From Botryllus schlosseri (lineage: Eukaryota): DNA of 64,000 nucleotides. Position numbers and translations under genes: made by a program. Location: assembly GCA_051294905.1 (NCBI GenBank), contig CM119372.1, forward strand, positions 15,812,001 through 15,876,000. The letters are read 5' to 3'. Positions 1-56,271 of the stretch are shown here, piece by piece. Within the stretch, counting starts at the first letter, position 1; each line of letters begins with the position of its first letter. Under the pieces are notes generated by a model. It searched no databases, was not told the origin of the DNA, and saw nothing but the letters and a program-made list of their open reading frames with translations.

Positions 1-1149
1 ACCGGTTTCGTCCGCTTATAAGCGAAAGACAACGTGGACCTACGTAATATAAAACTGAAATTTATAGCATAGCGACATATGCAGTGCATTTAATCCATTG
101 AATTATAATATACTCTATACTGCACGGCTGGACAAGGGCGGGCGTAGAACAGAAATAATGCAGTCGTCCATACACAAAATTAATTTAGCTAGTGCTGGTG
201 GCGTCAAAATGCAATTTCAATCAAAGAATTGGATTCCGAATTTTGGAGAAAATTTTTAATGCAACCTTAAATCTATCTTGGCGCTTCGCGCGATTGACGT
301 GGGGGAGGGGGTTCGACGTTTCGTTTTTAATATAGTAGTGTCGTTGAAATCTGAGACCCACCGTAAAAATGAGAACAGCAGAGGAAAAGTACGTGCCCCA
401 GAACCAATGTGGTATCGCGTGTGCCTCACGAATGAATATTTTTCTGTTATGTTTGGACTATTACAATAAATGTTCTGACTACACCGAAAATACTTACGGA
501 AGTTCAAGAAATAGCGACGTGCAGCAAAGTGATTAACAGTAACCCGAAGATGCATCACCATTAATTGTGTACTCACAATTTCAACTCTACCGGTAAATTT
601 AATACCAATTACGTAGGCTGCGAAAGGATAAATAAATGATAGTAATATGCGCAACTAACAATATTATCGATAAAATTAATTCCCAGAGTTGTTGAATTGA
701 AGGGCTATCGAGGTACAAATTCCTTCAGCAGCCAATTTAACATGAATATTTGGTGTGGGCTGTTATGACTGTCCGCTGGAATGCGGCAGTGCGCAATATA
801 TGCAATCGAAATGCGGCAATGAATTCTTGGCTAATGGTAGGCTACACTGCAAAATCCATAAATAAATTTATGAACTCGTCGTTCGTGTTCGTTCGAGGTT
901 GTTGTTGTTGTTACTACTGTTATTGCTTAAACGGAAAAATGCGGCGATCAGTGGCGAATGTTTACCAAGGCATTGCGGCCCCTCGTCGTCATCCTGGTCC
1001 GTACCGGATTTCTACACGTGTGACAAATAAATGAATCTGAGTAAAAACGATCAAATAACAGAATAGCCTATAACACTGAAGTTACAAATAGCGGTTATAC
1101 GATAAAACAAATTCAAATACATACGAAACTATGCGAGAATCAATGAGTA

Positions 1150-1480
1150 AATCAGCACTACAGAAATTCACTTTCAATTAGGCATATTTATCGATAAGAT
1201 ATTTTCGATGATAATCATATCTCGGACGACTAATTATAAAATGGTCTAGGGTTTCTGGTTAGCGACTGTAGCTACAAAAAGGAGAGTCAGTCATTTCAAT
1301 TTTAAACAAATTCATATTCAGACGACAGTGGCCGGACTGCAGACGAAAAACAATACTTACATCTAGGCAATTTCTACGTACAGGAGGTTTATTCGAACTG
1401 GAAGAATTGAAATTTTCATAATCATGACCGTTGTCGGACGTTCGGAATTCTTGGTCCCAAGCAGTGTTATACAAGGTGCA
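1150..1480 (-). mobile_element. Decayed non-LTR retrotransposon (I/Nimb-like) ORF2 C-terminus
   Basis: FRLQSGHCRLNMNLFKI...SPFC...ETLDHFII.RPRY, resembling the C-terminal CCHC region of I-group LINEs. Confidence 0.6.
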
Positions 1481-1587
1481 TTCAATAGAAAATCGTCACC
1501 AACGTTCACCGCCTATTTTCACTGCAACGCAAAATTTAGTTTTCGGAATGATCGAACAATCAATTAAACAACGAATAGATTACTTGT

Positions 1588-1860
1588 GTGGTAAGATTGG
1601 AATGGTGATATATCCACAGCTGCAACACCAATGCGTTGCTAGTTCGAGTACGAACGAGGTTGACTCCAGAATTCCTACCTAAGTGTTGGTGGTTGATCTA
1701 GACTTCTCCCAATCAAAAGATCCTTGTAAGCGCTGTCTCATAAAATCTTGGAAGTGTGTCGCGCTACAAGTCGACAGCTGCGAAATAAGAATGAAACAGA
1801 TTGGCCTGGTGTAAATGACCACAGTGCAGTCTACAAACACTGCGAATACCGCAAACAACA
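1588..1860 (+). mobile_element. tRNA-derived SINE family 1, diverged copy
   Basis: Homologous to 4868 and 35544 copies; aacaacgaataga repeated on both flanks. Confidence 0.8.
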
Positions 1861-2961
1861 ACAACGAATAGACTAATTATTCAGTGACAGTGATTGTAAG
1901 ATTGTTTTCACACATTGTGTCTGTCCGGTAATTCGTACAAATGTGACTCTGGCATAGCGTATAGTTATCATATACATTAATATATTACTTTACGGAAATG
2001 TAGGGTTAGAATTAGCAATATAACGTCGCTTAACGTCATAGGTTCGTGGTCACGTTCGCGCTCACACAGAGCCTTTCAGGGGTTCGCCTCATCCCTGATG
2101 TTTAGTAGGGACGGCGTGAATGTGGGATTCACGTTCGCGTTGTGCGTGTGTGAACCTCCGAAATTTGGGAATTCGCGATCGCAAACGAAATTGGTATGTT
2201 CTGTACTGTGAACCTTTCCCATTTATCACAATGTTTTCATTTCAATATCACATTTTTCGTTGAAATTCTCTACATTTCAACTTTTGGCCACCCTCCGCAT
2301 GGCGTTGAAGAGAAATTAAACACTAAACGAGTATGCACATTGCCCCTTTCGAAATTGTTGTTGGTTCTGTTCAAAAAGTTTGCTCGAATTATTCAGCTTA
2401 ACGTTCCTGAATATTTGTGACTCTCTGCTGTGAGCTTGGCCCGAAATAACAATTATAATCATTGAAGGCTTAAATGTATGTTCCGCTGTATAGTGACCAT
2501 GTCTGGCTCCACCTGTACGCAGGGTTGCCATACCGTCCTTATTTTTAAGATTGTCCTTATTTTGAAGGGTCAGGTCTTAGAAAACTCAACCGTCCTTTTT
2601 TCGATTTGCGTCCTTATTTAGTCTTATTTTCAACAACACAAAACTGCGATGGTTTTCCTCTGGTATCGGCGTGGTATAATATTCTAAAGATATGCTTTTG
2701 CGTCGACATTCTATGACATCATAAATGAAAGGAGCACCCTAGGCGTACGTACACACCTCAGGATTTGAATTCGAAGTGGTGAGATAGCTAGGGCAGTGAT
2801 GGGTATAGCAGTTTCGGCTGTACCAAGCTATTAAGGCCGACCTCATTCTCGCTGTAAATCGCAGTACCAGGTTTCTGCTGTAAAAAGTAGTAAAGCTATA
2901 AATCATTGATAAATTTATCTAAACTATATGGCACATATGTATAGTTTTGGCTACTAATAAG

Positions 2962-3891
2962 CAGTGTTGGGATGACTCGAGTCATGACGTGACTCGAGTC
3001 AGACTCGAGTCACCTTTTTTGAATGACTTGACTTGACTCGAGTCACTTTGCTAAAATGACTTGACTTGACTTGACTCGGCGTATCAGAAACATGGATTGA
3101 CTCGTGACTCGGAGCAAAATTCACGAGTCAATTTCAAGTCATCAAGTAATCGATGTCGATAACAATCACTGAATCTTGCATATATTCGGATTGTTCGCGA
3201 AACGCTGGTGTAACTGTGAGAGCAATTAATCGCTCGACCAATCATTTAATGATCGTGCGTTTTACTGAGCCTCCATTGTTCCCTCACAAATAAATTGACC
3301 GCAATCAAAGTGATCGAAGCTCACAGTTTACGTTGTCGTAAACTAGTACAGTAAAGTAATTAATCTCTGTTTTTACCTTAACCAAACTTCTTGTTTTATT
3401 GAAATTGAATTCGAATATAATTTATATTGTCCTCAACCTCAACCATTGGCGCAGGCTCGAATTGTATCATATCGATTTGCAGATGGGTAATGCATTGCTT
3501 CCTATGAATTCGTATCTATTCTATATTTTGGCTGGTAACTATAAACTGTGGTTTAGCGATATAGCGCCTTCTTATGTGTAAATTTAACTTTTTATTCGTT
3601 CATCGGTTCAAAATCAATGACCACTCAATCTGTATTTCAGACAGCTAGCAAAATGCAATGACGTTATCATGCCCCATACTTTGAAAAAGCAACTTGACTT
3701 GAATTGTGACTTGACTCGTGTCTTGACTTGACTTGACTCGATTTGACTCGAGTCACATTCAAAAATCGAGTGACTTGACTTGACTCGAGTCACCTTTGAA
3801 AATCGATTGACTTAACTTGATTCTAGTCAAAATGTGCAATGACTCGAAATGACTCGTGACTCGATGGTATAGTAACTTGATCCCAACACTG
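2962..3891. mobile_element. hAT MITE, GACTC/GACTT-repeat family
   Basis: 12-bp TIR cagtgttgggat; perfect TSD ctaataag; subterminal gactcgagtc arrays. Confidence 0.9.
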
Positions 3892-4867
3892 CTAATAAGG
3901 CTACATCTGATTAAAATGAGGAAGCATAAAAACGTTTTTCGTGACCTTTATTAGAGAGAATTCAAAGGTAGGCCTATAAAACGAAGCTTGAAGGGCCAGT
4001 GTTTCACACATATCAATATCTGCAATTGTGACATCACCCTGGAAGCCATAGGAAAGACCGCTATTTCAACTAGCATTAATACCCAAAAACACAAGAAGCC
4101 AGTCGTTGAATATTTTTCACAAGTCAATCAGCACCAACGACCAGCACAGACTATAAGACAGCCGCTGCTGAGGGTACCTGGGTATTCCATACTGTCAAAC
4201 ACCAGCACTTTCAGCAATCATTCCTCACCAACGATTACACATCGCAATTTTTCAAAGCAATATTCCCGATTCCAACATCACAAAGAAGTTTGTTTCGGCC
4301 AGGACCAAGACTACAAAGATTGTTGCTGCAGTTCTTGCTCTATACGCTCAAAAATGAATTTGTCTGAACTTAGTGTAGGCTACAGCCTTTTTCCATCTCG
4401 GCCGACGCCTCTAATCACAACAAGGTAAAGTTATTTCATCTAGTCATCAGGTTCTCCAACGCCAAAGTTGGATCGCGCGTGCGTCTTCTTGACCTGAGAT
4501 CGATGCCAGCCGAGACCTCGGCACAGATGACGAACTTTATTCTCTTCTTTATTCAAGAGAATGGCTTAGACATGAGGCAGCTGCCATCCTTTTTTGCCAA
4601 TAATGCACCAGTTAATTTTGGAGGATTACAGCATAGTGGTACAACCAACGTCTTCTCTCGCCTCAAAGAGTAATCATTTCATCTGATCCCTGTCGCCTGC
4701 CCTACTCATATTTTGCAGAACGCAGCAGAGACGGGGTCTGAGAGCCTCGCACTTGACATAAAAACAATCGTATTGAAGATTGCTCGCCAAACAAGACAAG
4801 GAAAGGATTTAGTGAAATCACAGTCAAATCCCAGCTACAAGTGAAGATAAACTTACACCTGACTTGT

Positions 4868-6300: not shown

Positions 6301-7640
6301 CAGGCCGTGTTATTTTTGGCATTTCGGAAGCCAGATGCCAAAACTGCCAAAAATAAAAATTTGAAAATGCCAAAAATAACTAATTTTTGGCATATGCCAA
6401 AAATAACACAGCCTGCCAATAGTGTATTTCTTTCATGGTGTTGTGTTAACAGGACCGCATTACAAGTGTGAAGGGCAGGTTTTTTACTCTATGGGTCCAG
6501 CCCACCCATTAGGGGAAAAAGCATGGTGTCCTAAAAGGTGTGGGCACAGCGAGATTGAACGGCTGACTGCATTTGGTTTACGTCACACTTTCCATTTGTC
6601 CAAAGGCAATTTTACGGCCATTTTTAACCGGCTTGCTGAGCGCTAAATTTGATAAAACGGGTATTAATGGAAAGCTGCCGCTGTACTGATTACTAAAATA
6701 TAAATTGTATTCTGCTCATGGATCTGGAACCCCCAAACTCCACTAAGATTTTTGCATTGTGATCAAGTTGAGCATTGTGACACAACAAACAGTCCGGCTA
6801 TTTCTGAGCTGCAGTCTCGTTTTGCCAAACAGTTTTGTTGCGTTAATGTTCTTAAACAAGGTAACCTTCCCAGGACTTTTCCATGTGAGTTGGTTATTTT
6901 TAAGCCATCTTACGTGACAAAAGTCCTGCTAAAATATATCGGTAGACTGATGCAGATGGGATGGTCGCGCTACAAAATAGAATGTGTTAAGAGACAACAC
7001 AGGGAACTCCTGGAAAGTATCGGGAAGAAAATTCTTTTCGCGATGAGATCGATGGCACTAGCCCAGTGATCTCTTTTCATGATGCTTGGAAGCCGGTTCT
7101 GCCCTCCGAAATTTTGAAGCTCTGAAAACCTTTTGTGGGGGATTGGCAACATTCTTTCCCTCAACGGCTACTGTTGAAGCCGATATTTCCCACATTCGTT
7201 GGGCGAAAAATTAATTCAGGAGAAACTTTGCTGACCTGAGTTTGGAAGCACTGTTACAGTGCAGACAATTTAAGTCTATTCAAAAGCTGTAACAATCAGG
7301 AGTTGAGCGTGTTTGTTAGGCTTCTCATTCTTTTTGCTTATTGGCACCGATTCCGAATGGATACTGCACATTTTGTGGTTTTGTTTGATAATATTAACCT
7401 ATGTAATCGCTAGGTTTTTTCTTCTTATTATTGTTTGTTGGTACTTATTATAAGTGGAAGCTGCACATTTTCTGGTCTCTATTGATAAACTGACCCAAAT
7501 AAGGCGTTTTTATGACTAATTCGAGTCTGAAAATATCTATTTAGAGGTCGATGCCAAAACTGCCAAAAATAAAAATTGAAAAATGCCAAAAATAAGCTAT
7601 TTTTGGCAGTTTTGGCATATGCCAAAAATAACACGGCCTG
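6301..7640 (+). mobile_element. hAT-like element with transposase C-terminal remnant
   Basis: 22-bp TIR caggccgtgttatttttggcat; perfect TSD cctataac; FCGGLATFFPSTATVEADISHIRWAK...LSLEALLQCRQF at about 7120-7290. Confidence 0.85.
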
Positions 7641-8168: not shown

Positions 8169-10074
8169 CAGGGGTTCTTAACCTTGCCCCCAGCGCCCCC
8201 CAGGGGGCACTGACGATTTTGGAGGGGGCGGAAACGCTCACGGGGCAAAATGGGGGGCGCCGGGCTCAGGGGGGCGGTATGGGCGGCGCTGGAGAAAAAT
8301 GGCTTCGCAGTAGATGATGTGGTGATATCCGTAATGAGTATTCAGAGCAAATTATCACCGAACTCTTCGTTATATATAGCCTTCAAAATACATATAGGTT
8401 TAATTGTCCTTGGACGCCTAAATGACTGGCACGGAATGTTCCTGTCTTGGCAATTTGAACCCCAGAAGACGAATTCCATCTGTCAGTGAAAAATTATATG
8501 CCAGTGAAGAAAACCAATTTGAAATCGTGTACGTCTTTTAGTTCAGTACGATTGGGCGACAGGGATATTCCTGTTGGGCGATGTCCCTGTTGGGCGATTC
8601 TATATTTTTTGATATTGCAGACAGGAAGTCACGAAATAACATCATGCAACGAAGTCATACCACTAACGGGTTCGCCGGCCCGAATATGTTTAATTATTAG
8701 TTACGCGCCCTGCAGTTTTCAAGACAACTCGCAATGTTCGCTTCAAGTTTTGATAAGTCTGCGCACACTCAACAACTCACTGCGCTGACCCTTGAACAAC
8801 AGTGCGTAACGACTAAAAAAAGGTCATAACTTCGGATTTGTTGTGCGCAACGTAGATTTTCTGTGCGCAGAGACCGTGTCAGCATTGCGCACGTGCGCAG
8901 CTTAGAGGGACCATTGCACCTCACTCAGCTCTACAGGTAAATCTGGTAACGTGAGCAGAGAGAGGACAAGAAATTGATAGCAATATATATGCAATCACCG
9001 ATCTTACTGACCGATTTTAGCATGCATTATCGAAATTTTTCGCGCTTCCCACTGGATCGCTAAACAGTACAGCTGATTCCGTGGCAGAAGCGAACAACGT
9101 GATGGGGGGCGGCCGGTTTATCACCATATGGGAGCCCAAGACCCAAGTTTTTTCGGGGGCCTGACGAAGTGACGTTTTGTTCCTGCCAACGGGTATACGC
9201 CCGAAGATGTATAATTATTAGGGCTATTGAGGGGTCCTACTTTTTCAATCGCACATCACTCAGCTTTACCGGTAAATCTGTTTACGTGAGCAGAGAGAGG
9301 ATAAAAATTGAACTCAATCTACATGCAATTCCCGATCATATTGACAAATTCAATCATTAATTAGTGAAATTTATCGCGCTTCGCGCGTCTAAGCGAGAAT
9401 AGCTGCCTCAGTAAATAAACACCCAATGTAGATACCTAGTATCAGCAAAAAGCGGACAGCCGAATGGGGGTCTGGGGGTGAAGTACCCCGGAAGTTTGGT
9501 TTATCACCCGATGGGGGCCCAGGACCAACGTTCTTTTGTTTGGGGGGGGGGCTGACGAAGTGCTGTTACGGCCCTGGTAACGAATAATTGTACCTACGGG
9601 CACGCCCGAATATGTTTAATTATTAATTACGTGCCCTTTATTTTCCTATACAACAGCTCACTCAGCGCTACTGGTAAATCTGATTACGTGGGCTGAGAGG
9701 ATAAAAAGTTTATAGCGACTTATTTATGTAATTACCACCTATTCATGCATGCATTATAGAAAATTTTGGTACCTAGGGCCAGGGATATCTAGACTAGTCT
9801 AAATATCCCTGCCTAGGGCGACCAGGCCACACAAACTTTGCTGACCATCGAAATAACGCTATGGGGTTCGCGGGGGCGACGCCCTCAGAAGTTTGGTTTA
9901 TCACGCTATTGGTGCGCAAGGCAATCGTTTTTAGGGGGGTTGACGAAGTGCTGTTACGGCCCTCCCTCTTACTCATTGTCTTTATTACATTCCTTACAAT
10001 AGGAAGTTGGGGGGCGCTGGAGCACGATAATGTTTGAAAGGGGGCGCTGGAGGAAAAAAGGTTAAGAACCACTG
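8169..10074. mobile_element. hAT (Charlie/Buster-type) MITE with nested repeats, including about three tandem-like units (near 8920, 9260, 9660)
   Basis: TIR cagg/tggttcttaacctt; TSD ccatagaa/ccacagaa. Confidence 0.8.
9780..9811. mobile_element. 32-bp TIR-only micro-MITE
   Basis: Palindrome cagggatatctagact|agtctaaatatccctg (15/16); perfect TSD cctagggc. Confidence 0.75.
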
Positions 10075-17695: not shown

Positions 17696-19352
17696 CAGGG
17701 TTGCAATGACTCGAGTCAGACTCGAGTCAAGGATTTTTGGTGACTCGACTTGACTCCAGTCATTTTCTTGAAAAGGGAAAATGACTCGACTCGACTCGAG
17801 TCAATATTTGGATTGACTCGACTTGTACTCGAGTCTTTACGCATGACTCGACCCAAGTTATTGACTCGGCATATTTTATATGACTTGCAGATGAAGAAAT
17901 TTGCAAATCGTACTGGCTAGATCAACGCATATGAGGAATTCTGCCGATATCGCTATTTGTCGCCACTGCTTTCTTTGCACTCGTCTGATATCAGATATGC
18001 CGCCGTAAAAACAACAGACAATGTCACATATAGTAGCGATGCATTGTACAAAATCATTCTGTGATGAAGAGGTAATAGATCCTCCGCAATCAAAGTACTC
18101 GAGACTTTTCAATTATGCAAGCAAACGATCGAAGCAAAGTTCAATTAGAGGCAATGAAATGACTCAGATGGTCAAGTACTTGGAAGAGACTGATAAGCTC
18201 ATGTCTAGATTTGAAGGCGATGATTCTCTGCATTATTTGGCGACCAGAAATAATGAGTATCCAATGGTCTTCAATGTGGTTCAAAAATGCTTGTCAATTC
18301 CTGTATCTTGGTGCACCAGTGGAACGTGTTTCAGTAGATGTGGATTTATTCTAAGGCCATGCCGCTATAACATATATGAGGATCTCCTTTCCACTTTAGT
18401 ATTTCTGAATTGTAACTCATCATTGATTTGATCTGCTGTCAGTGAAAACACACAATACACTCCGTCCATTTGACGTTTTGTTATGTATGTGCATTGTGCA
18501 CGTGAGTATAATAATGAATGGCTAATGTTGTGTGATGTTTGTACAATAGGGTTGTTCAAGAATAACATATTTATTTTACTGGGTGGCTACTTGGTAAGAT
18601 TGTTATGTTGCATAAAAAAAAACTGAATCTGACTTAATTTTAAAAAGTAGAATCAATGATATGAGAGGAGAAAATTTTATATTTGAAAATAAAGGGAGTG
18701 TTTTTGGTGAGAAATTATTTTATATAATTTAATTACATGCTAGTAGTAAGCCGACTATTTCTTCATATCCGAAATATTCCACTCTAATAAATTCGCTTTT
18801 TCTAGTTGGAATTGAGCCAAATTTGCTATAAATCATATTTTTACACAATATAACAATACCATGAGGTGGCCGGTAAAATTCGAAAATCTCTATTTGTAGT
18901 TAATCCAAAATTTCCTCTCATATTAGTAACGCGCCAGCGGCTATTTCGGGAGCTGAGAAGGAAAGCTGACCTTTTTTTAGTCAACCACCTGATAATGTGA
19001 AAGAAAAACTATACATCTACATAAACATGCATCTGTTGATTCTCTATCAGCTGGTATCTAGACGTGAATTCGTTGGCTCTATATCAGATAGCATGTAGAA
19101 TGAATTCGTTGATTCTCTATAAGCTATAAGCTAATTCAGGATTGAAAACATGAGTTGAACATGATTTCAATACTGTGACTTGGACTCGACTCGAGTCATC
19201 ACACTATGACTCGGACTTGAGCCTTTAAAGGGTGACTTGGACTCGGACTCGACTCGGTGATGAATTGAAAATGACTCGACTTGACTCGAGTCAAAACCAC
19301 AAAAGTAAGATTGACTCGTGACTCGGAACAATGTGACTTGGTTACAACCCAG
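17696..19352 (+). mobile_element. GACTC-family hAT deletion derivative with hATC dimerisation-domain remnant (18021-18431)
   Basis: TIR cagggttgcaa/ttacaacccag; YPMVFNVVQKCLSIPVS/APVERV/FSRCGFILRP...LVFLNCN (frameshifted). Confidence 0.85.
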
Positions 19353-24686: not shown

Positions 24687-27224
24687 CAGACATGGGGTGA
24701 TTACTTTATGAATGTAATCGATTGCGATTACGATTACTTCGGAATCACGCGATTACGATTACGATTACGATTACAGCAAAATCAGGAAGTAGTCGATTAC
24801 GATTACGATTACATTGGAAAAGTAATCACGATTACTCACGATTACATTTGTTTTGCTTCTTAGGACTATAATCTCAAATGATATATTGGAAGACAATACA
24901 AGGATTGCGATGAAAAGGCTTAATGAGATATCAACTCTCTTCATACATCACGAGGCATTTGCTTATTACGTCATAATATACCAATTGCCCAACTTTATAG
25001 TGGATGATTTATCGCATCCAACGATTTGCATTATTGCCAGGTCTTTACCTGCCGCACCCCAAATTCCTTAATAGGGTGGGGAGCGTGCTCGAAGGGGACT
25101 CAAAAGTTTTTCGTAAACCAACATAAATTATAGAGTATTTTCGAGAATTTAGTTAATTCTTAAAAATGTTTCTCGAGCTTTGCGATTCAAATGTCTCTAG
25201 TACAGGGGTCACCAACGCGGACCAAATGAGTCGCCCGCGGTCGCTGTAGCGAATACCCAAATGAGAGATTTGAAAGTTGAAGCTGGTTTCATATGAGCAG
25301 CAGTTGAACATGGGTCGGCCGACCCCAAGGAAGATACGAACGCAGTCGCTCGGGGCATTGCTTGTCTTCGCCCACGCGGCGGCTCAACGGGAATCTATAG
25401 ATTGGAGATCGGAAATTTGCGCTTCGGCACGCACTGCAGCAACGCAGCTGAGCTGGTGTGAGTCCCGGCGAGTGAGCGTTTTTTGTTCTTAGTAAGGGGC
25501 GGAAACCCGGCCCAGTGCTCTGATTGTCTTACTCTAAGTGGAGAAATCCAACTTAACATGGATAAACGGCGGGAGTAAGTGGCAACCCGTCGGTCGTCGC
25601 AATAATCAGTACACACTACACAAGAAGTAGCTTTTTGTTTCAAAACGGTTGGTGACCCCTGCTCCAGTGGATAGCTGGGTTTGAGATGCATACCTCTTCC
25701 CCTCAAGAAAAAACATGCATAGGCTATTTTATGGGAACAGGCATTTCGGAGCCGGTCATTACCGCGCCACGATCCCACAACACACCAAAAGACATATGCG
25801 GTTTCGGCCAACACGCAACTCCGCGGGATGTGATACCAAAGAAATACCATGGCCGAAACTTAGGGTATTCGTCCATTGTCAATAGCCGCGCTGGGTGGGC
25901 GTGACTAATAACTCCTGTCCTTCCAATCTGGGCCCACAATGCAAATGCCACCCGGCGCATCCACAAAGGAATAAAGCCATGATAATTTGTGTGTGCGTTT
26001 CACAAAAGATATTCTTTTAGACTGCTACGTTTGGGCGAGTACAATATCTTTTGATTATACAACAGATTTGAGGTCGCGAATTAACAATATACAGTAAAGT
26101 AATTATAACAACATATCAGATGCTATGATTATGAATTACGGGCCCCAGCTCTACAGGTAAATCTGACACTCGGGGCTGAGAGAGGTTATAAATGAATAGT
26201 AACATATTGCAATTACCGATATTATTGATTAAATTCAGTTTTGAAAATTGACCAACGGTTGGACAGGGGAACGAATTGTCGTTTTGGCTGAATTGCTGAT
26301 TCTAGCTACAACCCACGCTAACATGTCAGGCTATATAAGCGGATGGTTATGGCGGCAGGTCCAAATGCTAAGTAACGAACTGTGAAATAACGATTGACGC
26401 CCGTTTCAAGTAAAGTTATATGAGAATAAGATATAGTGAACATAAAAATTCTGCCTTCAACTTAATACATATACTGCGAGCTGCTGTTACCAGAAACGGC
26501 TAAGCACGGCTCGGTTACGATTAGGGCTGGGCACAATGATGCGAGTACTCGAATCTGAATCGAGTATTAATTTTAATGATTCGAGTCGAGTACTAAAATA
26601 CGTTTTTTTCGAGTACTGAAATTATACGCTTCTCGCCACTGAAAGTTAATTTATCAACGAGAATTATAATTTCGATACTACTTTTCACTGTTGTAGCATT
26701 GAAACCTTGATTGGAGGTATCGTAGCATACGAAAAATATGGTACGAAGCTACGATGGTTATTGGACGTAGCACATTTTCGAAGTCATGATTATCCCACAA
26801 CATTGTCACCAAGTGGAATGAAATCGGTATGGCCGAAAAAATACCAAAGTATCATTTATGAGATGGATAAAAGGCATTATATTCTGTACTATTTGTGGAC
26901 ACTTCTTACGCAATGACGAGCGGAGCTAATACTTCTGACGTAATAATGAGTCAGTGGCGTTTGAAAACAGACGTTTGTGCTACCGCTAACGTGGTATATT
27001 ATCTCATTCTTGTTCACGAATATTCAGTTAATGTCATAGTCCTTGTACAAACAAAAAGTAATCGTTCTTTCACAAAAGAATCGATTAAATATGGGAAGTA
27101 GTCGATTACGATTACGATTACTTTGGATTTTTTTCGAATGTAATCGATTGCGATTACGATTACTTCAAAATGCTGTAATCGTCGTAATCGATTACGATTA
27201 CTAATCGCGATTACCCCATGTCTG
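24687..27224. mobile_element. hAT MITE, GATTAC-repeat family, with nested elements
   Basis: TIR cagacatggggt; perfect TSD gtgtcaac; (gattac)n subterminal arrays. Confidence 0.9.
25203..25661 (+). mobile_element. hAT MITE carrying 28S rRNA-derived fragments (25239-25578)
   Basis: 14-bp TIR caggggtcaccaac; TSD ctctagta/ctccagtg; interior matches LSU rRNA motifs. Confidence 0.8.
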
Positions 27225-27654
27225 GTGTCAACCTGCTTGTCCTACCAAGAATAATTCAAGTGTACCCGGTGCCCATGTCAAAAAACCTTGATATTTGGAA
27301 TAGAGTATATATTCAAAAGACAGACGTAGTTATTGGTAACTCCATAAGGCCTAAAAGTGACGGAAAGAAACAGGAGGAAAAAACATATCGGTAGAAACTA
27401 TACCATCGCACGGACGTGACTGGCTAAGTGGCATTACTGTATATAAGTATATACCTTAGGTCAGGGGTCATCAAAGCGGTGACCGCGGGCCCCAGGTAGC
27501 TCGCGGTGACCAGATGAGTAGCCCGTGAGCCTGTTCTAATATTAGATCGAACAAGCAGCATTTACCAATATTCGTCAGATTATTACCAGTGAGCTTTTAA
27601 ATATATGAATTGATTTATTTAGCTATTCTTGTTTAAATCACACTGACATGTAGA

Positions 27655-28050: not shown

Positions 28051-28283
28051 GACTTTTTACCCCTGGCCTGGTTATGTTCGAGAACAAGCGGATTGTTATG
28101 CTCTGATTTCGAAATATAAGATTTGACAGACGGTTGTTCTCGAGCATAACCAGGCCACGCATACCATTCCCATGGAATTAATTGTAGCAGTTTTAGATAA
28201 TTCGAGGTCGAATCCGATATATTCACCTTTTAAAATCTAAATGGACTGTTTCGAGCAAAGCGTTTTCTGTATTGTTGTTACAG

Positions 28284-29321
28284 GTATCAATATCTATAGC
28301 TGCGCCCTGATTGAAGCATGCTGGTTGCCGGGAAGGGGGTGTTTCTACCCAGTTGACATTTTGAACGTGAGAGTAAATTCGGGGGAAAGAACTATTTACG
28401 CCGTTCGGGACGAAATTGCATATGGACGACCAAGATGCCAAACCTTCGACAGCAGTTCTCCAATCGACACTCTCAAGAGTTATCACAAATGTTTAAGCGC
28501 GGGTTGTTCTGTAGACCAGTCTGTCACGCAATTATATTATTCGCATCTGTTCAGTATTGGTGAACAGCTACGAGTTCAGAATCATTGGGATTACTGGGAC
28601 GACGTGGCAAAGGGTCTTGTGGGGTCGTTCAACATCCCAGACGTGCTTGGAGAGTACGGATACTCAGGTGTCAACGATGCGAAACCAATCACCACTGCAC
28701 CGGCGTCAACTACCCTTCTCGACACGTATTGGTTTGTTCCTGGACCAGCTCCCGTGTCTTCGAGTGATAAATTTATTATCCCACCTTCGTCAGGTGGTAG
28801 TTTGGCGTGTGGTTTAGGAAATAAATTGGATGGCGGAAGGCCCTGCCCGCCGAAATTCCGTCCAATCGGCGAGAAGAGAGGCTGGTGTCCGTACAAACCG
28901 TTTTTTATACCACGCTTCAAAAACCTGGAGGGTAGCTTCGTTGGTTGTTGCGATATCAACCTTTGCTACTTACCCAAAAAGGAAATTTCCAACACGCACT
29001 CCGGTGTAGCCCATTACTACACCGAATGGACCTTGTTCTCGCCGTGCTCCGTTACATGTGGGCAAGGCGTGAAGCGACGGCACACAAAATGCGTGAGTGG
29101 AGACAGAAAGTTTTGCCTTGGTAACATCATCGACGAGCAACCCTGTACCGGTAAATTCATTGTGTGCGGCACATGGTCACAATGGAGCACCTGGATTCCT
29201 TGTCCTCGTACCTGTTACCCAGGTGGCTACCAAGCAAGAACACGCACGTGCTTGCCACGTTATTCAAAGTGCGATGGTAGCAACGAAGAGGCGAGATCGT
29301 GCAATAAACACTCCTGTGGTG
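28284..29321 (+). CDS. Exon E: large exon with trefoil-like Cys motifs and two thrombospondin type-1 repeats
   Basis: Lies within the 373-aa ORF 28241-29362; TSP1 motifs WTLFSPCSVTCGQGVKRRHTKC and WSQWSTWIPCPRTC...RTRTC; acceptor ttgttacag|, donor G|gtaaga (phase 1/1). Confidence 0.9.
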
Positions 29322-29749
29322 GTAAGAGAGGAAACGTGTTCGTTTTTGAAGGCGCAACGTGAACGTCGAACGGGCGCGCTATATATGCTACTGAATGTAT
29401 TAAGGTAGGTTCACTGGGAATTCAAATAGCCCTTCTACCCAGAGCTAGCTGTACGCTTGCACATGATTTTGAATCATGTTTTTTTGGCATCAAGACAGAA
29501 TTCATTGCGATGTTGAGGGACTATTTAAAGGGGCGCTGAGCTCTAAACATGCCGTGTTCTCAAAGTAAATATGCAAGTGTGAAATGTTTTTAGCAGCAGC
29601 AATTTTCTTCGGAACGCCACCGTATTCGGACTGCAATTATTCGAAGCATACAACATATTATAACCATGTTGCCGAGCCCTGAATTGAGTTAACCCGTGGC
29701 CATGGTTAACCATTGTCAAGTTATCTCGGCGTTTAACTAACTATTACAG

Positions 29750-37741: not shown

Positions 37742-38389
37742 AGAGCTTCTTGGAGGTACAGAACTTCAATATACAATTAAATAGTATATTCATATTGAAA
37801 TGAACCCGAATATTTTCGGCTGACACTCGTCAGGGGTAATCGTCAGCAACTAGTAGAGAATTGGAAAGAACATTGTATATCAACAATCGTATCACAAAAT
37901 ATGACGTCACCAGCATGAAATTTCGAATGAGAGAGCGTTCAATGTACTATTTTTAGGTGATACACGAACTCCTATTGTTGACAGAGTTTTGGTTGGTGTA
38001 TTTTGATAAAAGTTGATTCCAAGGCACACAAATGGAATTGTGAACGGCCTCGACTTACGATTCGAAATCGGTCGTATAATTATTCGCACAAATCGGATTA
38101 TCCAACAGATGTTTGCCGATGGCAGAATTAATGGCCTTTGATCGATCAGCATCAATCTTAAGTGGATGAGTTAAGGGTGAGCTTTTCACATCGCGTGACG
38201 CACGTGTTCTGATAAATCTGGGGACATGTTGGTTTATGCGGTCCTGCAGACGTCTTGACGTTCTTCCCACGTAGCCACAATCACAGTGGCACCTATATTC
38301 GTACACTACATTACTTTGTTGAAGTGCATGAAGCACGTCTTTGCGTGTTGAAGGGAGCAGTTGTGTTGTTGTAAAAATCACATTGGTTT
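37742..38389 (-). mobile_element. 5'-truncated Penelope-like element: GIY-YIG endonuclease plus 3' region with hammerhead
   Basis: SNVVYEYRCHCDCGYVGRTSRRLQDRINQH...SAIGKHLLDN; 11-bp TSD tagaacggcga. Confidence 0.9.
37804..37847 (-). ncRNA. Minimal type I hammerhead ribozyme motif
   Basis: ACCC-CUGACGA-G(UGUCAGC)C-GAA-AAUAUU-C-GGGU. Confidence 0.75.
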
Positions 38390-38626
38390 TAGAACGGCGA
38401 GAAGACTATAGTAATCACAAAATCACAGCTACTGATTGTTTAATCAGCCATGCTGAAATGATCACGACCGCAGCGGCTTGCTGATTATGTGCTTCCTCTA
38501 GTTCAAGATATTTAGCTGACGGCGATCATTCTGTAAGCGCATTGTTCGTTGGCGATTTTATGATAAAATCTAACACCTGGTCATTGAATGATTTAGTATC
38601 AAAAGTTGGTTACGATAGGTTTAGAG

Positions 38627-39891: not shown

Positions 39892-40866
39892 TAGGGATGG
39901 TGTGAACGTGAGGTTCACGTTCGCGTTCTGTGTGTGAACCTCGGAAATTTTGAGGTTCGCGTTCACAACAGAACCTTGGTAGGTTCTGTACTGTGAACCT
40001 TTTTCATATATATTTCAATTTTCTCTTCATTATAACTAATTAGGTTCAAATTCATTGCATTTCAACTGCGGACCACTCTATGCATGGCACTGGCAGCATA
40101 AACAATCAACACCTTGACAATTTCAAAAATTCATTTGCTCTCCAACAAAAGTTTGCTCGAAATATCCAGCTTTCCGTTTGTGAACATTTAGTGACTCTCT
40201 GCTATGAGCTTGACCGGCAATCACACTACATCAATAGCGAAATACACTACATGTAGATAGCGAATGATGCTTATTCAATTGATATCGTTTTCTGATGTAA
40301 AAATCTAGCTAGCTTACGTGGTCAATCTTGTCTTCATATGTTTACTGTATCATAAAAACGACATCCGTGCGATTGGGGTGTTGGCTATTGCTGTGTAACT
40401 TGGTAATGGAATAATATCGGTAGCAAGTATAGAAATCCGTTTTTACACTCTGCTCAATATCCGTGTAGCAATAGCCTACTCAGACGCCGAATACATTTTC
40501 CGGTCTGGCCTGGACCGTTAAGCCGTAAGCTTATATTCCCTGGCAAGTCCTCGTCGAAATTGTCGGCAAAGCGACGAAAGATATTGATTTATGCGATTAT
40601 TATATCATTTGATCGCCTCAGTTGGTACATTTAGCGACGATTAAAATGTCAATATGTACTTCAGCATTGTGCCATTATGTGGCCCGAGTCGTCGCTATGT
40701 ATCGTGTACATTAATATAGGCTATCACTTCATTCAAATATAGGGCTGGAATTAGCAATATGACGCCACGTGACGTCATGAGGTTCACGTTCGCGTTCACA
40801 CAGAACCTTTCAAAAAGGTTCGCGTTCACACGAACCTGAACCTTTCAGAGGTTCACACCATCCCTA
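39892..40866. mobile_element. hAT MITE, GTTCAC/GTTCGC family (other pieces at about 1995-2440 and 62965-63080)
   Basis: 16-bp TIR tagggatggtgtgaac; perfect TSD ctggacac. Confidence 0.9.
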
Positions 40867-42574: not shown

Positions 42575-43147
42575 CAGGGTTGTAATGACTCGAGTCATGA
42601 CTCGACTCGAGTCAGACTCGAGTCACGATTTTCGGATGACTCGACTCCACTCGAGTCATTTTCTCAAAATACGGAAATGACTCGACTCGACTCGAGTCAA
42701 TCTGTGTATTGACTCGACTTGGACTCGAGTCATTGCCCATGACTCGAAGCAAGTCATTGACTCGAGATTCAGACGGCGAAGACCGGCATTTCATTGTAAT
42801 TTCGCTATTAGGATTTCGTTTGTAGGTGCTGGTGCTTGAAAATGCCACCAGAAACTGCTAAAAGTGAGGAAAATTGATATACTATAAATGCGAACCATTC
42901 AATGTCACCAAACAGAGTTAAAAAAGTGCATTTAGGAAGACTTTAACTGGAAACTGAGCAGTCAACACAATGACTTGGACTCGGACTCGAGTCATAATAC
43001 CATGACTCGGACTCGATCCTCTGTTCGCTGACTTGGACTCGGACTTGACTCGGTCAGAATTGAAAATGACTCGACTTGACTCGAGTCAAAAATATAAAAG
43101 TGATATTGACTTGTGACTCGGAGCCTTGTGACTTGATTACAACCCTG
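42575..43147. mobile_element. hAT MITE, GACTC family
   Basis: TIR cagggttgtaat; perfect TSD ctgtcacc. Confidence 0.92.
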
Positions 43148-45020: not shown

Positions 45021-45854
45021 TCATATTTCCTTGTTATGTAAAGAATCGTGCCACCATCTATTATATTGCCAGGTTCCCGAATATATCAATAATATAGCAT
45101 GTTTTAATCCATTGATTCTCAAACTTTTTACCTCATCACCCCCTATTCTGCTCGAATTTCATTTCCATAGCATTCAAGTAGGTTTTATCTACTTGTGTTG
45201 CTTACTCAAATAATTTGATTTGTATGCTATTCAACCGTCTGTTGAAGTTGAAATACGCAGCATACTGTACACTGACAAGTAGTTTTAGGACAGGGACGGG
45301 CGACATATCATCCGCGACGTGATTTTGAGCGGCCCGCAGAGAGTTTTCGGTCGTACTTGATAATGCGGCCCGCAATCCCCAACTGCTTACGCGAAAGCTC
45401 GTCAGCACGAAGAAGCTTGCATTACCGACATCTACGCATGTAGTCAACCGTACTAAATTGATATTTTGGTAAATTTGGAAACAAATCCCAACCCCCTCGT
45501 TCGTATACAATACATAGCCTAATACCGTGGGCGCGTAACATACGGCCCGCGCTCACAGTCTTCCACAATTCTCCACTACTTGCTCACTACGTCAAATTAT
45601 AGCAACTGTACGTTGTTCATGATTTTTTCGGACACAAATAACAGTGCTTTCTAGTTCTTCTTTAGTTCTTTGTTTTCTTGTGTGCGGCATGCAGCCAGAG
45701 TTCAGAGAACCTGTTCGCAACACTGATCGACCACAGATGTCTCGTTGACTGCAACAGCTATTGAATTACAACATTAACAAATTCATTGAATACTGTTTTG
45801 GTTTCTATGCTTCAAACATAAAATTTACATTCCATACGATTAATTCATGTATAT

Positions 45855-48588
45855 CAGGGTTGTCCATAAATTGGAAAACCTCAAAAACGATGCGTATTCA
45901 TGTCTCATCCTATAGATTATTGATAAAAAAAACCGTCAATGAGTCTGCTATAAGCTCACATGGAAGTCGTTAAGATACGTCTAAATGTGTTTGAAAGTAG
46001 TTGCCGTACAGTGGGCGTGTCAGCGACCATAGAACGACGAGAAGTCTAATAATGACGACATCACGGCTCTTGATCGGCTAATCAACTATGCCTCAGTGAT
46101 CACGATGGTGGCGGCTTGCTCATAGTGATCAGCTGTTCAAGGAGTCTGCTAACGGCGGTGATTATGTAACCGCATTGTAGGTTGGCCCGCAGATAATGAT
46201 TTAAGATTAATTCAGAATATGTTAAGTTACGAAATGGATGATGAACACAAAAACATGGCTGGCTTACTGTGAAGGTAACTTTTGTAGCCTGCATGGCTTG
46301 TATTCATTGAGAGAAAGAACAAGAACGCGCGAATAAATATTGCAAAAGCGCTTATGCAAGTGGCGAAGGAATTTCTAGTTTGAAAAGAGATCATTGAATA
46401 CAAATATAAAGCTTAACAATGACACTACTTTAGCTGATCTTATTAGACTCTTGTCATGGTATATAATTGAAGTCTTGAATGCTGTAAGGGTTGGATGAAT
46501 CAGTCATTTACGCTTGGCACTTATCAGATTCTTACAGCATAATGTATCTACCCGTAAATGCTGTCAAAGCCCCCAATGATGCCGCGGAAAGAGGTCCAAT
46601 GGTAAGCACAGACTATGCTGGTAGGACCAGCAAAAAGACGGTTTGCTTGTATACTTAGCATGTCCCTGATGAATATTAGATCATTACCGGCTGCATCAAC
46701 AAGACATGGATATAGAAAAAGAATGTAATGAAGCGGTGCGGTAGTTACACTTCTTCAGAGTTCCAACGTAAGCTGCCTGGTCGGCCTACATATCTTTTGA
46801 GGATACAGCATAGTGTCCAGCATCCATCTCGCATGGTGTGCTGCACCAGTCTGGCGATGACTAATATACTTTACCTGCACTCAGAAAAGCAGAAGCACTC
46901 GGCGAAATCTCAAGCATATACCAGACATGTATTATTTCTAGGATTCATACTTAGTTCTATAAGTTCACAATCATTCGCTGTTTCACCTCCGCCATGCCTG
47001 CAATAGGCTATATTGTTGCTCTAAACCAGAGGTCTCAAACACGCGGCCCGCCAGAGCATTTTGTGCGGCCCGCGACGACGTTTTAGATTTTTATGAATTT
47101 GACAATATTCAAGTGTCGCATACATCGTTTCAGGTTTTAAAGTGAAAATTCCCTCATAAATTGCTCCGCAAGCCTGAAACTATTCATCGAACTTCACTAT
47201 CACATCAATTGTAAACGCTACCAATACCATGCAGTGGAAGATTCACTATTTCGCCACAGTTCCAATTCATGATGACAAAACGTGACCCTTAGACGATTCA
47301 TGACTGAAATTTGTGAGTTGGAATTGGACGCGACCTCTCTTTGACTTACTCAGACTCGGGTTATCTCGATGGCAAAAGGAAAATGACTCGAGTGGACTGG
47401 GAGTGACTCGGAATGCCGTGAATTCTTTAGAACCATGGACGCAGCGAACTAATCGCGTATTAGGGGAATAGTAGTAGATCAGAAGGTCGCAGCTTGGTAT
47501 TTCGCTAACTAAGCAAGTAGTTATGGCAACCATTGGCAATCTGTTAGTTACATCTTTGGTCGCTAAACCATGTTATTAAGGCCACTTAAAGGTATAGAGT
47601 ACCGTAGTGGTACGTTCCAACGATTTAACAACAATTGGCCGTTCGGCGTTCTGACATTTCAATCACTAGGACACGTTCATTAATATAGTTACATTATATT
47701 TATATTTTTTCTGCTCCTGTATTTGAAGATATTTGGCTATGAGATTAATAGCCTACTTATCAGACGTATACCCGAATCCTGGATTGGGAATACAATGTCC
47801 ATCCTAAAAATGTTTTGATTTCAGATCTGTCTCTATTATCAATCTGTTAAATTCAAAATATTCATAGTAGCTGCAAAATTAAAACCCGATAGCTTTTATG
47901 ATGGCATCATACATTTGTCCGACCATATGATGTCTATATCTTATAATTAATATATATCAAGTACAACAACAATTATATTCTAATAGTTATAAATGCGATG
48001 ATTCTTTTCGTGCCAGGCCTAAATTGATACAAGAGTAGATCGCAGTTTGACGGTGTGTGTTTACTGTCAGTCAGCTTGATCGACTCACTTTCAATAGGAC
48101 AATTCATTCCCGCCAAATAAGGCCTATTTGGAAAGACATAGAATACCCATATAGCCTAAATGCTGCGGCCCGCGGCGTCGTCAAAACTAGAAAACTGGCC
48201 TGCGAGCCCAATTGAGTTTGAGACCTCTGCTCTAAACCTATCGTTACCTAGTTTTAACGCTGAAACATTCAACGACCAGGTGTCACTTGTTATTTTTAAA
48301 TCACCAACGTACAACGCGCTTACAGAATAATTGCCGTTAGCGAACTTCTTGAACTAGTAGAAGTACATGATCAGCAAGGCGCTGCGGCCATGATCATTCA
48401 AACATAGCCGATTCATCAAACAAGAGACGTGATTTCGTGATTAGCAGTCTTCTTGCCGTTCTATGGTCACTGATACGCCCACTCAACGGCAGCTACTTTC
48501 AAACGCTTCTAGACAAACGACTTTCCTGTGAGCTTATTGCATGCTCATTGCTCATTGACGTTTTTATCAATAATTATGGACAACCCTA
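45855..48588 (+). mobile_element. hATm-like element copy 2 with long TIRs
   Basis: agggttgtccataa termini; TSD atgtatat/ttgtatat; PVNAVKAPNDAAERG at 46551-46595. Confidence 0.8.
47027..48229. mobile_element. Charlie-type MITE (another copy starts at 63775)
   Basis: TIR cagaggtctcaaac; perfect TSD ctctaaac. Confidence 0.9.
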
Positions 48589-49214
48589 TTGTATATATGG
48601 ATGAATACGCATTTAATATATCGATTCGGGAATCCGGCCCGCCGAGTACTTCATTTTCCCATATCCGACCCGCCGATTGAATAAGTTGCCCGTCCCTGTT
48701 TTAGGATGTACTAACGACGCATTGCTACGAAGTTGTCAAATAAGTGTTCGAATTTTTTTCGTCATTCAGAAGAACTGGGAAAAATATGTACATAAAAAGT
48801 GAGTAGCTGTTTAACAAATATATCGCAACATATGGGACAATTGCCTGGAAACTTGCAACGAGCCTTTTCTACTTTACTAATATTCTAATGAAAATGTATG
48901 TCAAATGGGTGAGCTTTTCGCGGGTGGTTGTAGGTGAGTCACGCACAACATCATTTCGTACATTTGCGCAATGGTCTATCTCTGGTCCCAGCAATGTAAC
49001 GAAACTGGAACCAATAGTCCAATATGCGAGTCAATAGTGATTTTAGGCTCTATGTGAGTCAAATACACTGAGAAGATTGGCAGCATTGGACATTGTCTGT
49101 ATGTTGAACCTGTCGGTATGATTTCGGAAATGTTGCTCTAAATATACCCTGAGGAGCTTCTTGGAGGTACAGAACTTCAATATACAATTGAATAGTATAT
49201 TCATATTGAAATGA

Positions 49215-49258
49215 ACCCGAATATTTTCGGCTGACACTCGTCAGGGGTAATCGTCAGC
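49215..49258 (-). ncRNA. Minimal type I hammerhead ribozyme motif
   Basis: Identical to 37804-37847. Confidence 0.75.
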
Positions 49259-49566
49259 AACTAGTAGGGAATTGGAAAGAACATTGTATATCAACAATCG
49301 TATCACAAAATATGACGTCACCAGCATGAAATTTCGTGAATGAGAGAGCGTTCAATGTACTATTTTTAGGTGGTACACGAACTCCTTTTGTAGACAGAGT
49401 CGACTTTTATCAAAATACACCAACCAAAACTCTGTCAACAAAAGGAGTTCGTGTACCACCTAAAAATAGTACATTGAACGCTCTCTCATTCACGAAATTT
49501 CATGCTGGTGACGTCATATTTTGTGATACGATTGTTGATATACAATGTTCTTTCCAATTCTCTACC

Positions 49567-49610
49567 GCTGACGATTACCCCTGACGAGTGTCAGCCGAAA
49601 ACATTCGGGT
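49567..49610 (+). ncRNA. Minimal type I hammerhead motif (helix III variant AACAUU)
   Basis: gctgacgattaccc-ctgacga-gtgtcagcc-gaa-aacatt-c-gggt. Confidence 0.65.
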
Positions 49611-50760
49611 TCATTTCAATATGAATATACTATTCAATTGTATAAATATACCCTATATACAGAAAAACAATTCTACAACTGGATACGAAAATGAAGTTTC
49701 GGAAATCATGTCGTCTTCGCTTGATAATATCGTATTAAAAATAAATTATGTCTGGGATTGCTACATCATTCGCGCAGTACATGGCTAAAAACAAAAACAT
49801 GAAACTAATTCGACTTGTACTTACACAGTTTGTGCAAGCAATAATGCTTTTTGCAATACCTGTAAGTGCCTGCTCTTGAAAGACCACGTCAAAGAGTACC
49901 TGATGTTCACAAAAAATGCATTTGGTAATTGTATTTATATATACATTACCATGCCGCAAGTCCTCAAAATCTCTCACGCAAGAAATACCTAGGGAATGGT
50001 AGAATACGGTCATGAGTGACAGCTGTATTTTTTATAAATGAAGTCTACCTTGAAACGTGTTTAACGTCTAGGGTTTGTCATTAAAGTGAAGTCAATTAAC
50101 TCACGAGTTTTTCAAGTGTCAGGCAATCCATAAATGTCGTCTCCCACTGATGTTGCCGACAAATATCTCTTTGTCTATTACAGATTCGAAAATGTAAGTA
50201 AAATGATTAAAGCGTGAGAGCGATTAGCATGGATATGTTTAGTGTCAAATTTATGGTGTTGATACACATAATTATCGCTTAAAAGTGAAATTTAATCTTA
50301 CTGATAATTTGTAAGAAACATTCCTCACAATCTTTTGTCTCCTTTATTGTTTTTCTTTTTCATTTAACATCGCTTACTTTACTAAAAACATTGTGCAAAG
50401 TATGGGCAGACCAATGTCGCCAATATTCGACTGGTCACAATAATTATAGATTAAACTATATAGGCTACTATCTGAATGATCGTAAATAGGATTGAGAACG
50501 TTTTCCGGCAAAGGAGGCATGTTGCGGATATTTCAATTATAATTCCCACGGAACCATAAAATAATGTCAAACACCGGTGACGTCACAATTGTAGATTCGT
50601 GACATCATGGAATTTAAGATTACTACACAGTATTCTTCGCGTTCGCCATATTTCCTGTATTAAAAGCAGATATGATGATATAACACATGTATAGTGGTAT
50701 CTGGGCGCGGCCAGTATACAGGAGGCGACAAATCCACTTTCCATTCAAACAGTTAGAAAT

Positions 50761-55585: not shown

Positions 55586-56271
55586 CAGGGGCGACCAACC
55601 CGTGACCCACGCGCCATATATGGCCGGCGAGACGGTTTTGGGTAGCCCGCGAATAAATTTTGGATTGTGAACCTGCAAGTCCAATTAAAAATTTGATTAG
55701 TCGGGCCGCAACACTTATTGATGACTAAAATATCAGTTCCGACACACTGACAGATCCACGGGACGGTCACATTTTTGGTAAATCTTCGTACATTGAAATG
55801 AAGTAGAATATTTGCGGTAGATTTATCTCGAGTAAATATTTCTTACACGCTTTGCGCAATAATTTTCACTCGATTTCTGGATTTTAATATTGTTACCCCT
55901 CATGAAAATGAAAGAACGCCTAATGTACCAGATTGCGTCTGACTATATTCGCAATTACGAGAGAAAGTGTCGTCCAGCATGCGACCTTGCGTTTGCGCTC
56001 GCAGAAAGACCGTTGACGATGAAACCTTGGGCACTAAATGATAGACGCATGTCGGCCGAAGTTTTCGATATCGATATGTCCTGGCGCCGAATAGTCCTGT
56101 CCTTGCAAACTGAGCCCAGTGATATCCAGTCGACCCGCAATATACTCAAGTAACAATATTATTGACCAATCTTTAAACTTTCCTAAACAAAAATCGCGCT
56201 TCGCGCGGCTAGTTGCCCTCGCATTGGTCAATTGCACGTGGCCCTTTGGCCGAAAAGGTTGGCCACCCCTG
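55586..56271. mobile_element. Charlie-type MITE
   Basis: TIR caggggcgaccaacc/ggttggccacccctg; perfect TSD gtttatgg. Confidence 0.88.

What the first reader, a model, noticed from the sequence alone, without database searches (positions are those of the whole stretch)
25203..25661. hAT MITE whose cargo is a compressed mosaic of 28S rRNA fragments, ending just before the R2/Pokey target region
Seen: between 14-bp TIRs, 25239-25578 contains, in rRNA order, gtagcgaatacccaaatgagagatttgaa, cagcagttgaacatgggtc, gagtcccggcgag...ttgttcttagtaagggg, and then gcccagtgctctgattgtc...aagtggagaaatccaa...taaacggcgggagtaa. Established (recalled consensus): these correspond to conserved eukaryotic LSU segments GTAGCAAATATTCAAA, CAGCAGTTGAACATGGGTC, GCCCAGTGCTCTGAATGTC and TAAACGGCGGGAGTAA. 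The junction at about 25510 skips several hundred nt of 28S, and the last block lies just upstream of the R2 insertion site. A related MITE end at 27462 has a different interior. Inference: Pack-type capture or gap-repair filler from rDNA or rRNA. If amplified, this would be a DNA-transposon family spreading rRNA-homologous sequence, a possible source of rRNA-matching small RNAs.
Basis: partly seen in the sequence, partly recalled or inferred. Interest (0 to 1): 0.7.

Follow-up and report, generated by a model that had tools for sequence, protein, structure and literature searches.

The report
28S-carrying MITE amplified as nested passenger
A small non-coding jumping element in a sea-squirt-like genome holds two decayed pieces of the 28S ribosomal RNA gene, and sequencing depth suggests it was copied hundreds to a few thousand times, likely as a passenger inside a larger element and with no function shown.

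Summary
The sequence is real. 25203-25661 has a perfect 14-bp TIR and a 6/8 8-bp duplication. Its interior is two collinear 28S segments, not a four-piece mosaic: 25239-25508 and 25510-25578 (nhmmer E 1.5e-20 and 5.2e-8), joined across about 515 nt of 28S. About 20% of conserved rRNA columns are substituted, so it is a dead copy. It is amplified: summed contig depth is about 2,100 times single-copy depth in two runs (rough and inflated). Depth runs on through both TIRs, no leading loose ends lie at the TIRs, and an empty site exists. Most copies therefore likely spread as cargo of a larger repeat, best candidate a 2,538-bp hAT-type element (24687-27224, TSD 8/8). A minor layer (1.4-3.9% of depth) keeps ancestral 28S letters and a 3-nt microhomology at the junction. 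An R2/Pokey link was not supported. RNA signal is weak and on both strands; small RNAs are untested. It is a Pack-TIR/filler-type hAT with rRNA cargo, not found in my literature searches or in earlier findings of this scan.

The parts
25203..25661 (+). Non-autonomous hAT-type element (MITE), 459 bp, carrying 28S-derived filler
25203..25216 (+). Left TIR, 14 bp
   Evidence: I21, 100% complementary
25648..25661 (-). Right TIR, 14 bp
25195..25202 (.). Left copy of the 8-bp target duplication
25662..25669 (.). Right copy of the duplication; 6/8 in this copy, 7/8 with the majority letter at 25669
   Evidence: table 3
25217..25245 (+). Shortened hAT head; lacks about 29-33 nt that the related end at 27462 and low-depth read copies have
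   Evidence: table 5c
25239..25508 (+). 28S segment A, sense, collinear with about 305 nt of 28S; this copy lacks about 23 nt near 25400 that other copies keep
   Evidence: tables 7, 8
25510..25578 (+). 28S segment B, sense, with a 6-nt insertion; ends 11 nt before the TTAA of the Pokey/R2 region
25507..25511 (+). A/B junction, about 515 nt of 28S skipped; the minor-layer letter at 25509 gives a 3-nt microhomology shared by both 28S breakpoints
25579..25647 (+). Right subterminal region, no 28S homology
24687..27224 (+). Candidate carrier: 2,538-bp non-autonomous hAT-type element, TIR 13/14, perfect 8-bp TSD, about 295-bp imperfect inverted arms with hexamer repeats
   Evidence: only 24900-26100 of it was laid with reads
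25036..26250 (+). Repeat module into which the MITE inserted; older MITE-free relatives at 16524-15809, 30356-30206 and 21168-21066 on the minus strand
27462..27560 (+). Related hAT left end with a full head and a non-rRNA interior

Best explanation
This is a non-coding hAT-type MITE holding two decayed, collinear pieces of 28S rDNA, which it likely captured once as repair filler and which were likely copied to high number when one copy rode as a passenger inside a larger non-autonomous element. Steps: (1) inferred: a gap in a hAT element was repaired by template switch to rDNA, copying up to about 0.9 kb of 28S; (2) shown as a shared junction, mechanism inferred: about 515 nt were lost between 3-nt microhomologies, during or after capture; (3) shown as a diverged layer, mobility inferred: an older set of copies (83-90% alike) exists at low depth; (4) shown by the duplication and the empty site: one copy with a shortened head inserted into a repeat module; (5) shown by depth, carrier inferred: the composite was amplified hundreds- to thousands-fold, most likely as the 2,538-bp hAT-type element 24687-27224. 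The rRNA cargo is neutral and decaying.
For: Two collinear LSU hits only. In a run holding only consensus-like contigs (X14), this copy differs at 3 of 180 nt inside the MITE and 4 of 217 nt in the left flank (table 8), against 23 of 110 and 6 of 34 substituted conserved 28S columns: the capture is much older than the last burst. Family-majority letters match the commonest 28S letter at 4 of 7 listed sites, the window letter at 0 of 7; minor-layer letters match at 4 of 5. Junction base 25509 has depth 38,770 (X1) and 282,705 (X5), and records 5 and 17 span it at single-copy depth with 23 and 17 differences. Depth across the right TIR is flat (X5: 292,802 at 25632, 281,810 at 25669); the bin across the left TIR is 60,047 and 330,687 against 37,606 and 213,612 expected for a low flank. 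X5 record 18 spans 25567-25836 with 17 differences at depth 403, about six times single-copy. None of the 24 listed loose ends lies at 25203 or 25661. Empty site: X1 joint 25200-25680 and the X14 loose end at 25680. Among candidate pairs enclosing the MITE, 24687-27224 is the best TIR plus perfect 8-bp duplication outside the hexamer repeats, and X14 record 9 links its left arm to the interior at depth 16, like the MITE contig (14.8). The 28S part folds no better than shuffles (z -0.17).
Against: No genome was available, so no second full copy was read and no flanks were counted. Read laying states that summed contig depth is no copy number; 1,132 loose ends, 76 joints and 148 variant rows were not shown, so independent insertions may be hidden. 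Only 24900-26100 was laid; the link to the carrier's right arm is untested, and depth falls in the last two bins (39,146 and 6,475 in X1), which may be an edge effect or a real end. The host's own 28S was not seen, so microhomology and ancestral letters rest on 35 other eukaryotes. Some minor-layer DNA contigs could be rDNA; only the RNA reads and records 5 and 17 show the junction in that layer. Full-headed copies exist at low depth, so the MITE may also have moved alone.
Confidence: 0.62

Rival explanations
1. The 459-bp MITE is itself the mobile, amplified family, and this copy merely sits in other repeats.
For: Intact TIRs and an 8-bp duplication; full-headed copies at single-copy depth in DNA and a diverged full-headed copy in 8-9 RNA reads (tables 5c, 7); many loose ends were not displayed.
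Against: Flat depth through both TIRs, no listed loose end at either TIR, share running on into unlike sequence 0 (X1) and 0.01 (X5), and a multi-copy contig spanning TIR and flank.
Confidence: 0.15
2. The composite was amplified by another carrier (a rolling-circle element, an unseen larger element) or as tandem or segmental arrays, not by the 2,538-bp hAT-type element.
Against: The outer element has a perfect duplication, and a consensus-like contig joins its left arm to the interior at 98%; no backward joints are among the 15 listed.
Confidence: 0.15
3. The cargo entered by reverse transcription of 28S rRNA (LINE or R2 machinery) into an existing MITE, which would explain the end near the R2 site.
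For: Sense orientation; rRNA-coding sequence only; the end lies in the zone upstream of the R2 site where ribozyme cleavage (9-36 nt upstream) and variable junctions occur, also in sea squirts (PMC3774820 passages).
Against: No poly(A) tail or flanking duplication around the cargo; no homology past 25578; by my count the end is 17 nt from the R2 insertion point (position recalled), not at the -13 or -28 sites named in the paper; later deletions could have set the end anywhere.
Confidence: 0.06
4. The read depth comes from the host's rDNA, and the element is a single or low-copy filler event.
For: rDNA is multicopy and the likeness threshold was 80%.
Against: Depth is as high on the non-28S parts (73,657 and 336,753 at 25597-25637) and on the junction; 28S-state letters make up only 1.4-3.9% of depth at the five minor sites.
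Confidence: 0.02

Closest known systems
Pack-TIRs of animals (Tan et al. 2021, PMC8277862; passages and methods section 14 seen)
   Same: Host sequence held between the TIRs of a hAT element; gap-filling with template switch and microhomology is the proposed route; 208 of 370 cases are hAT.
   Different: Cargo is rRNA gene sequence (0 occurrences of rRNA or ribosomal in that main text); about 20% diverged from its source; far more copies than their multicopy cases (4 cases, 1.4%). Their pipeline needed a unique parent at 90% identity or more, so it could not have found rDNA cargo.
SINE28 (seen only in Table 2 and text of the review PMC10946416, section 11)
   Same: Repeat family built from 28S sequence.
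   Different: SINE28 is a mammalian retrotransposon; this has TIRs, an 8-bp duplication and no poly(A) tail.
Pokey and mPok of Daphnia (PMC3849761, passages)
   Same: DNA transposon and MITEs that carry rDNA-derived sequence.
   Different: piggyBac with TTAA duplications, inserts into 28S, carries IGS/ITS2 repeats that evolve in concert with rDNA; here a hAT outside rDNA carries decayed 28S coding sequence.
Nested MITE composites and Ds-like filler elements (general knowledge, recalled)
   Same: A MITE inserted into another non-autonomous element and was copied with it.
   Different: The passenger holds rRNA sequence.

Membership tests
Non-autonomous hAT element (MITE) | Short terminal inverted repeats | tested here: met
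   14 bp, 100%; related ends at 27462 and 55586
Non-autonomous hAT element (MITE) | 8-bp target-site duplication and an empty site | tested here: met
   6/8 here, 7/8 with the majority letter at 25669; empty-site joint 25200-25680
Non-autonomous hAT element (MITE) | Many independent insertions of the element itself with distinct duplications | tested here: inconclusive
   No listed loose end at the TIRs and flat depth argue against it for most copies; 1,132 loose ends not shown
Non-autonomous hAT element (MITE) | An autonomous partner with the same TIRs and a hAT transposase | not testable with these tools
   No genome held; the Charlie/Buster label is recalled from TIR and target style, not tested
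Pack-TIR / filler-carrying TIR element | Non-TE host sequence between the TIRs | tested here: met
   LSU hits
Pack-TIR / filler-carrying TIR element | Microhomology at the TE-filler breakpoints | tested here: inconclusive
   Internal junction shows 3 nt in the minor layer; the 5' junction shares 4 nt with a sibling head by eye (table 7); the parental right arm and the host 28S were not seen
Pack-TIR / filler-carrying TIR element | Identifiable parental locus in the same genome | not testable with these tools
   No genome held; rDNA is the inferred parent
SINE28 / rRNA retropseudogene | Retrotransposed form: poly(A) or simple-repeat tail, no TIRs | tested here: not met
   TIRs present, no tail
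Pokey / mPok | TTAA duplication and insertion into the 28S gene | tested here: not met
   8-bp duplication; only the two internal LSU hits are significant in the window for the modelled 28S region
Functional LSU rRNA gene | Full length, conserved core, Rfam gathering score | tested here: not met
   22.9 bits against 50; 23 of 110 and 6 of 34 conserved columns substituted

The most novel reading that the evidence does not exclude
A DNA-transposon lineage has scattered 28S-derived sequence over about a thousand loci of an ascidian genome, and TE-directed piRNAs or siRNAs from these copies, including antisense ones, pair with the conserved 28S blocks and affect rRNA or rDNA silencing, or the copies act as ectopic pairing partners of rDNA.
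Probability: 0.08. Interest if true: 0.7.

Novelty: new variant of a known kind. Interest (0 to 1): 0.4.

Why it matters
A 2024 review table of rDNA-derived TE sequence (PMC10946416, Table 2) lists 5S-promoter SINEs and TRIMs, SINE28, and only Pokey/mPok (spacer DNA) among DNA transposons. A hAT-type element with 28S coding sequence at high copy number adds a missing category and shows how neutral cargo reaches high copy by nesting. In practice such copies can confound rDNA copy estimates, low-stringency FISH, rRNA filtering and repeat annotation. It also offers a testable case for whether TE silencing spills over onto rRNA. No function is shown.

Tried and rejected
Rfam on 4 kb found no LSU; the hit needs the narrow query. 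No own genome. The viral-contig hit L001 is a chance 19-mer. No match in plasmids or phages. The junction 18-mer gave 0 viral hits and 14 bacterial hits that I took as chance and did not examine. Two more end patterns gave 0 viral hits. No second copy of the element in the 64-kb window. Extension of 28S homology to the R2/Pokey site rejected. The fold of the whole element (z -3.72) vanishes without the ends (z -0.17), so retained rRNA structure is rejected. A separate TIR element at 24862/27043 rejected: it is part of the outer element's inverted arms. X14 (other organism label) may hold only a trace of the host; not used for species range. Literature searches (listings only) and term look-ups in two Botryllus genome papers (0 occurrences of 28S in either main text; supplements not read) found no description of this element. 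Repbase and Dfam could not be searched. Earlier-findings look-ups by sequence, words and place returned nothing on this element (other topics).

Full report
Observation. The element 25203-25661 has a perfect 14-bp TIR and an 8-bp duplication that matches at 6 of 8. The TIR alone is weak (0.41 expected per window); the duplication has p about 0.005. Rfam gives LSU_rRNA_eukarya at E 0.0018, 22.9 bits, under its gathering score, for the element alone and nothing for 4 kb. I fetched 98 metagenome loci by a 19-mer of the element; 3 of 3 tested are LSU genes, and 97 of 98 gave a BLASTN hit, one of them little more than the 19-mer. Against L027 the element aligns at 62% over positions 37-306 and 75% over 308-376. 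A profile from 35 distinct references (41 long enough, of 98) finds exactly two significant hits in the window: 25239-25508 (E 1.5e-20) and 25510-25578 (E 5.2e-8). With the selecting 19-mer masked, B stays at 6.7e-8, the 3' part of A is at 3e-4 and the 5' part of A drops to E 3. The skip is a median of 515 nt. So the cargo is two pieces of one gene in order, not a mosaic.

Host. The ORF at 28241-29362 has its best named hit in Styela clava (39%), so the host is likely an ascidian.

Decay. At columns conserved in at least 95% of references, and leaving out the 19-mer, segment A has 87 matches, 23 substitutions and 9 deletions (60 references); segment B has 28 matches and 6 substitutions (36 references). 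The 28S part folds like its shuffles (z -0.17). The longest exact matches to any reference are 22, 16 and 14 nt, the first containing the selecting 19-mer. It is not a working rRNA.

Amplification. 20 of 24 listed runs, from 10 studies, hold part of 24900-26400. I laid 4 of them on 24900-26100 at 80% likeness: 19,885 contigs in X1, 4,045 in X5, 122 in X14, 152 reads in X24. X1 may be the source sample; X5 is another sample and study. Median summed depth at 12 listed sites in the 28S part is 22,378 (X1) and 138,143 (X5), against medians of 10.5 and 65.9 for the 8 long records listed per run: ratios 2,141 and 2,098, range about 470-4,600. The tool warns that this is no copy number, and overlapping short contigs inflate it, so I read it as hundreds to a few thousand. 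It is not rDNA: depth is as high on the non-28S parts and on the junction base, and 28S-state letters are only 1.4-3.9% of depth at five sites.

What moves. Depth does not drop at either TIR. None of the 24 listed loose ends lies at 25203 or 25661, though 1,132 were not shown. One X5 contig spans segment B, the right TIR and 175 nt of flank with 17 differences at about six times single-copy depth. An empty site appears as a joint 25200-25680 in X1 and as a loose end in X14, and older MITE-free relatives of the flanking module lie elsewhere in the window. The common form lacks 29-33 nt of the hAT head; copies with it are at single-copy depth. I infer that one copy inserted into the module and the composite was then amplified. 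The best carrier is 24687-27224: TIR 13/14, perfect 8-bp duplication, about 295-bp imperfect inverted arms. A consensus-like X14 contig links its left arm to the interior (4 differences in 217 nt, depth 16; the MITE contig has 3 in 180, depth 14.8).

History of the cargo. At 7 listed sites where the family majority differs from this copy, the majority letter is the commonest 28S letter at 4 and the window letter at none. At 5 minor-layer sites the minor letter is the 28S letter at 4, including 25509, where it matches the base after segment A and the base before segment B and so gives a 3-nt microhomology. Eight to ten RNA read starts carry these letters on both sides of the junction, and two diverged single-copy contigs span it. 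Other copies also keep about 23 nt near 25400 that this copy lost. This fits one capture, one deletion, an older layer and a recent burst. The host's own 28S was not available, so this rests on other eukaryotes.

R2/Pokey. Segment B ends 11 nt before a TTAA in the references, which I take to be the Pokey site from the preferred bases in PMC3849761; that paper says R2 inserts within a few bases of it (passages). The sequence after 25578 has no likeness to the downstream 28S (1932 of 2000 shuffles score as well). R2 ribozymes cleave 9-36 nt upstream of the insertion site, with -13 and -28 named (PMC3774820 passages). By my count, with the insertion point recalled, the end is 17 nt upstream, at neither site. 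The closeness is real but unexplained, and coincidence or later trimming is the likelier reading.

Expression. In X24 (about 6% of the run read) 152 of 12.9 million reads were laid, none at 99% or better, 98% running on into unlike sequence, at most about 8 deep per strand over the cargo, on both strands. This looks like read-through of diverged copies. Human-like reads are filtered by the tool, which may remove 28S-like reads, and no small-RNA library was tested.

Comparison. It works like a Pack-TIR or filler-carrying hAT (PMC8277862, passages and methods section); that survey never mentions rRNA, but its filters excluded multicopy parents. It is not SINE28 and not mPok. The review PMC10946416 (outline and section 11) lists no DNA transposon with rRNA-coding cargo. 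Seven search listings and term look-ups in two Botryllus genome papers (supplements not read) showed no description; Repbase and Dfam were not searchable, so prior naming cannot be excluded. Earlier findings of this scan held no look-alike.

Verdict. Real, amplified, mechanistically ordinary, with an unusual cargo: a new variant of a known kind. Interest 0.4. The regulatory reading stays open at about 8%.

Noticed in passing
window 24687-27224: 2,538-bp hAT-type element with a perfect 8-bp duplication and long imperfect inverted arms rich in a hexamer repeat; encloses the finding.
   Followed up: partly
loose ends at 25249 (X5, X14): A sibling element shares the MITE head up to 25249 and then has a different interior; it may be the parental, 28S-free form.
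   Followed up: no
loose ends at 25221 and 25255 (X24): 8-9 RNA reads come from a diverged copy with a full hAT head and the start of segment A; what follows looks 28S-like by eye and may keep 6 nt that the common form lost.
   Followed up: no
window 8169-10074 and 55586-56271: Two other hAT-type elements (duplications 7/8 by eye and 8/8) carry pieces of the same repeat module that surrounds the MITE; the first holds it in tandem units.
   Followed up: partly
window-wide: Several other TIR elements with perfect 8-bp duplications, such as 2962-3891, 6301-7640, 39892-40866, 42575-43147, 45291-48698, 47027-48229, 57168-58757 and 59320-59982.
   Followed up: no
window 28241-29362 (+): 373-codon open frame with thrombospondin type 1 repeats; only 3 relatives found, best named one in Styela clava at 39%.
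   Followed up: partly
window 49150-49650 and 59320-59982: Near-perfect foldback elements; the first has relatives at 22577, 34230 and 37740.
   Followed up: no
window 18009-18431 (+) and 38055-38405 (-): Open frames that by eye resemble a hAT transposase C-terminal piece and a GIY-YIG endonuclease piece; not searched.
   Followed up: no
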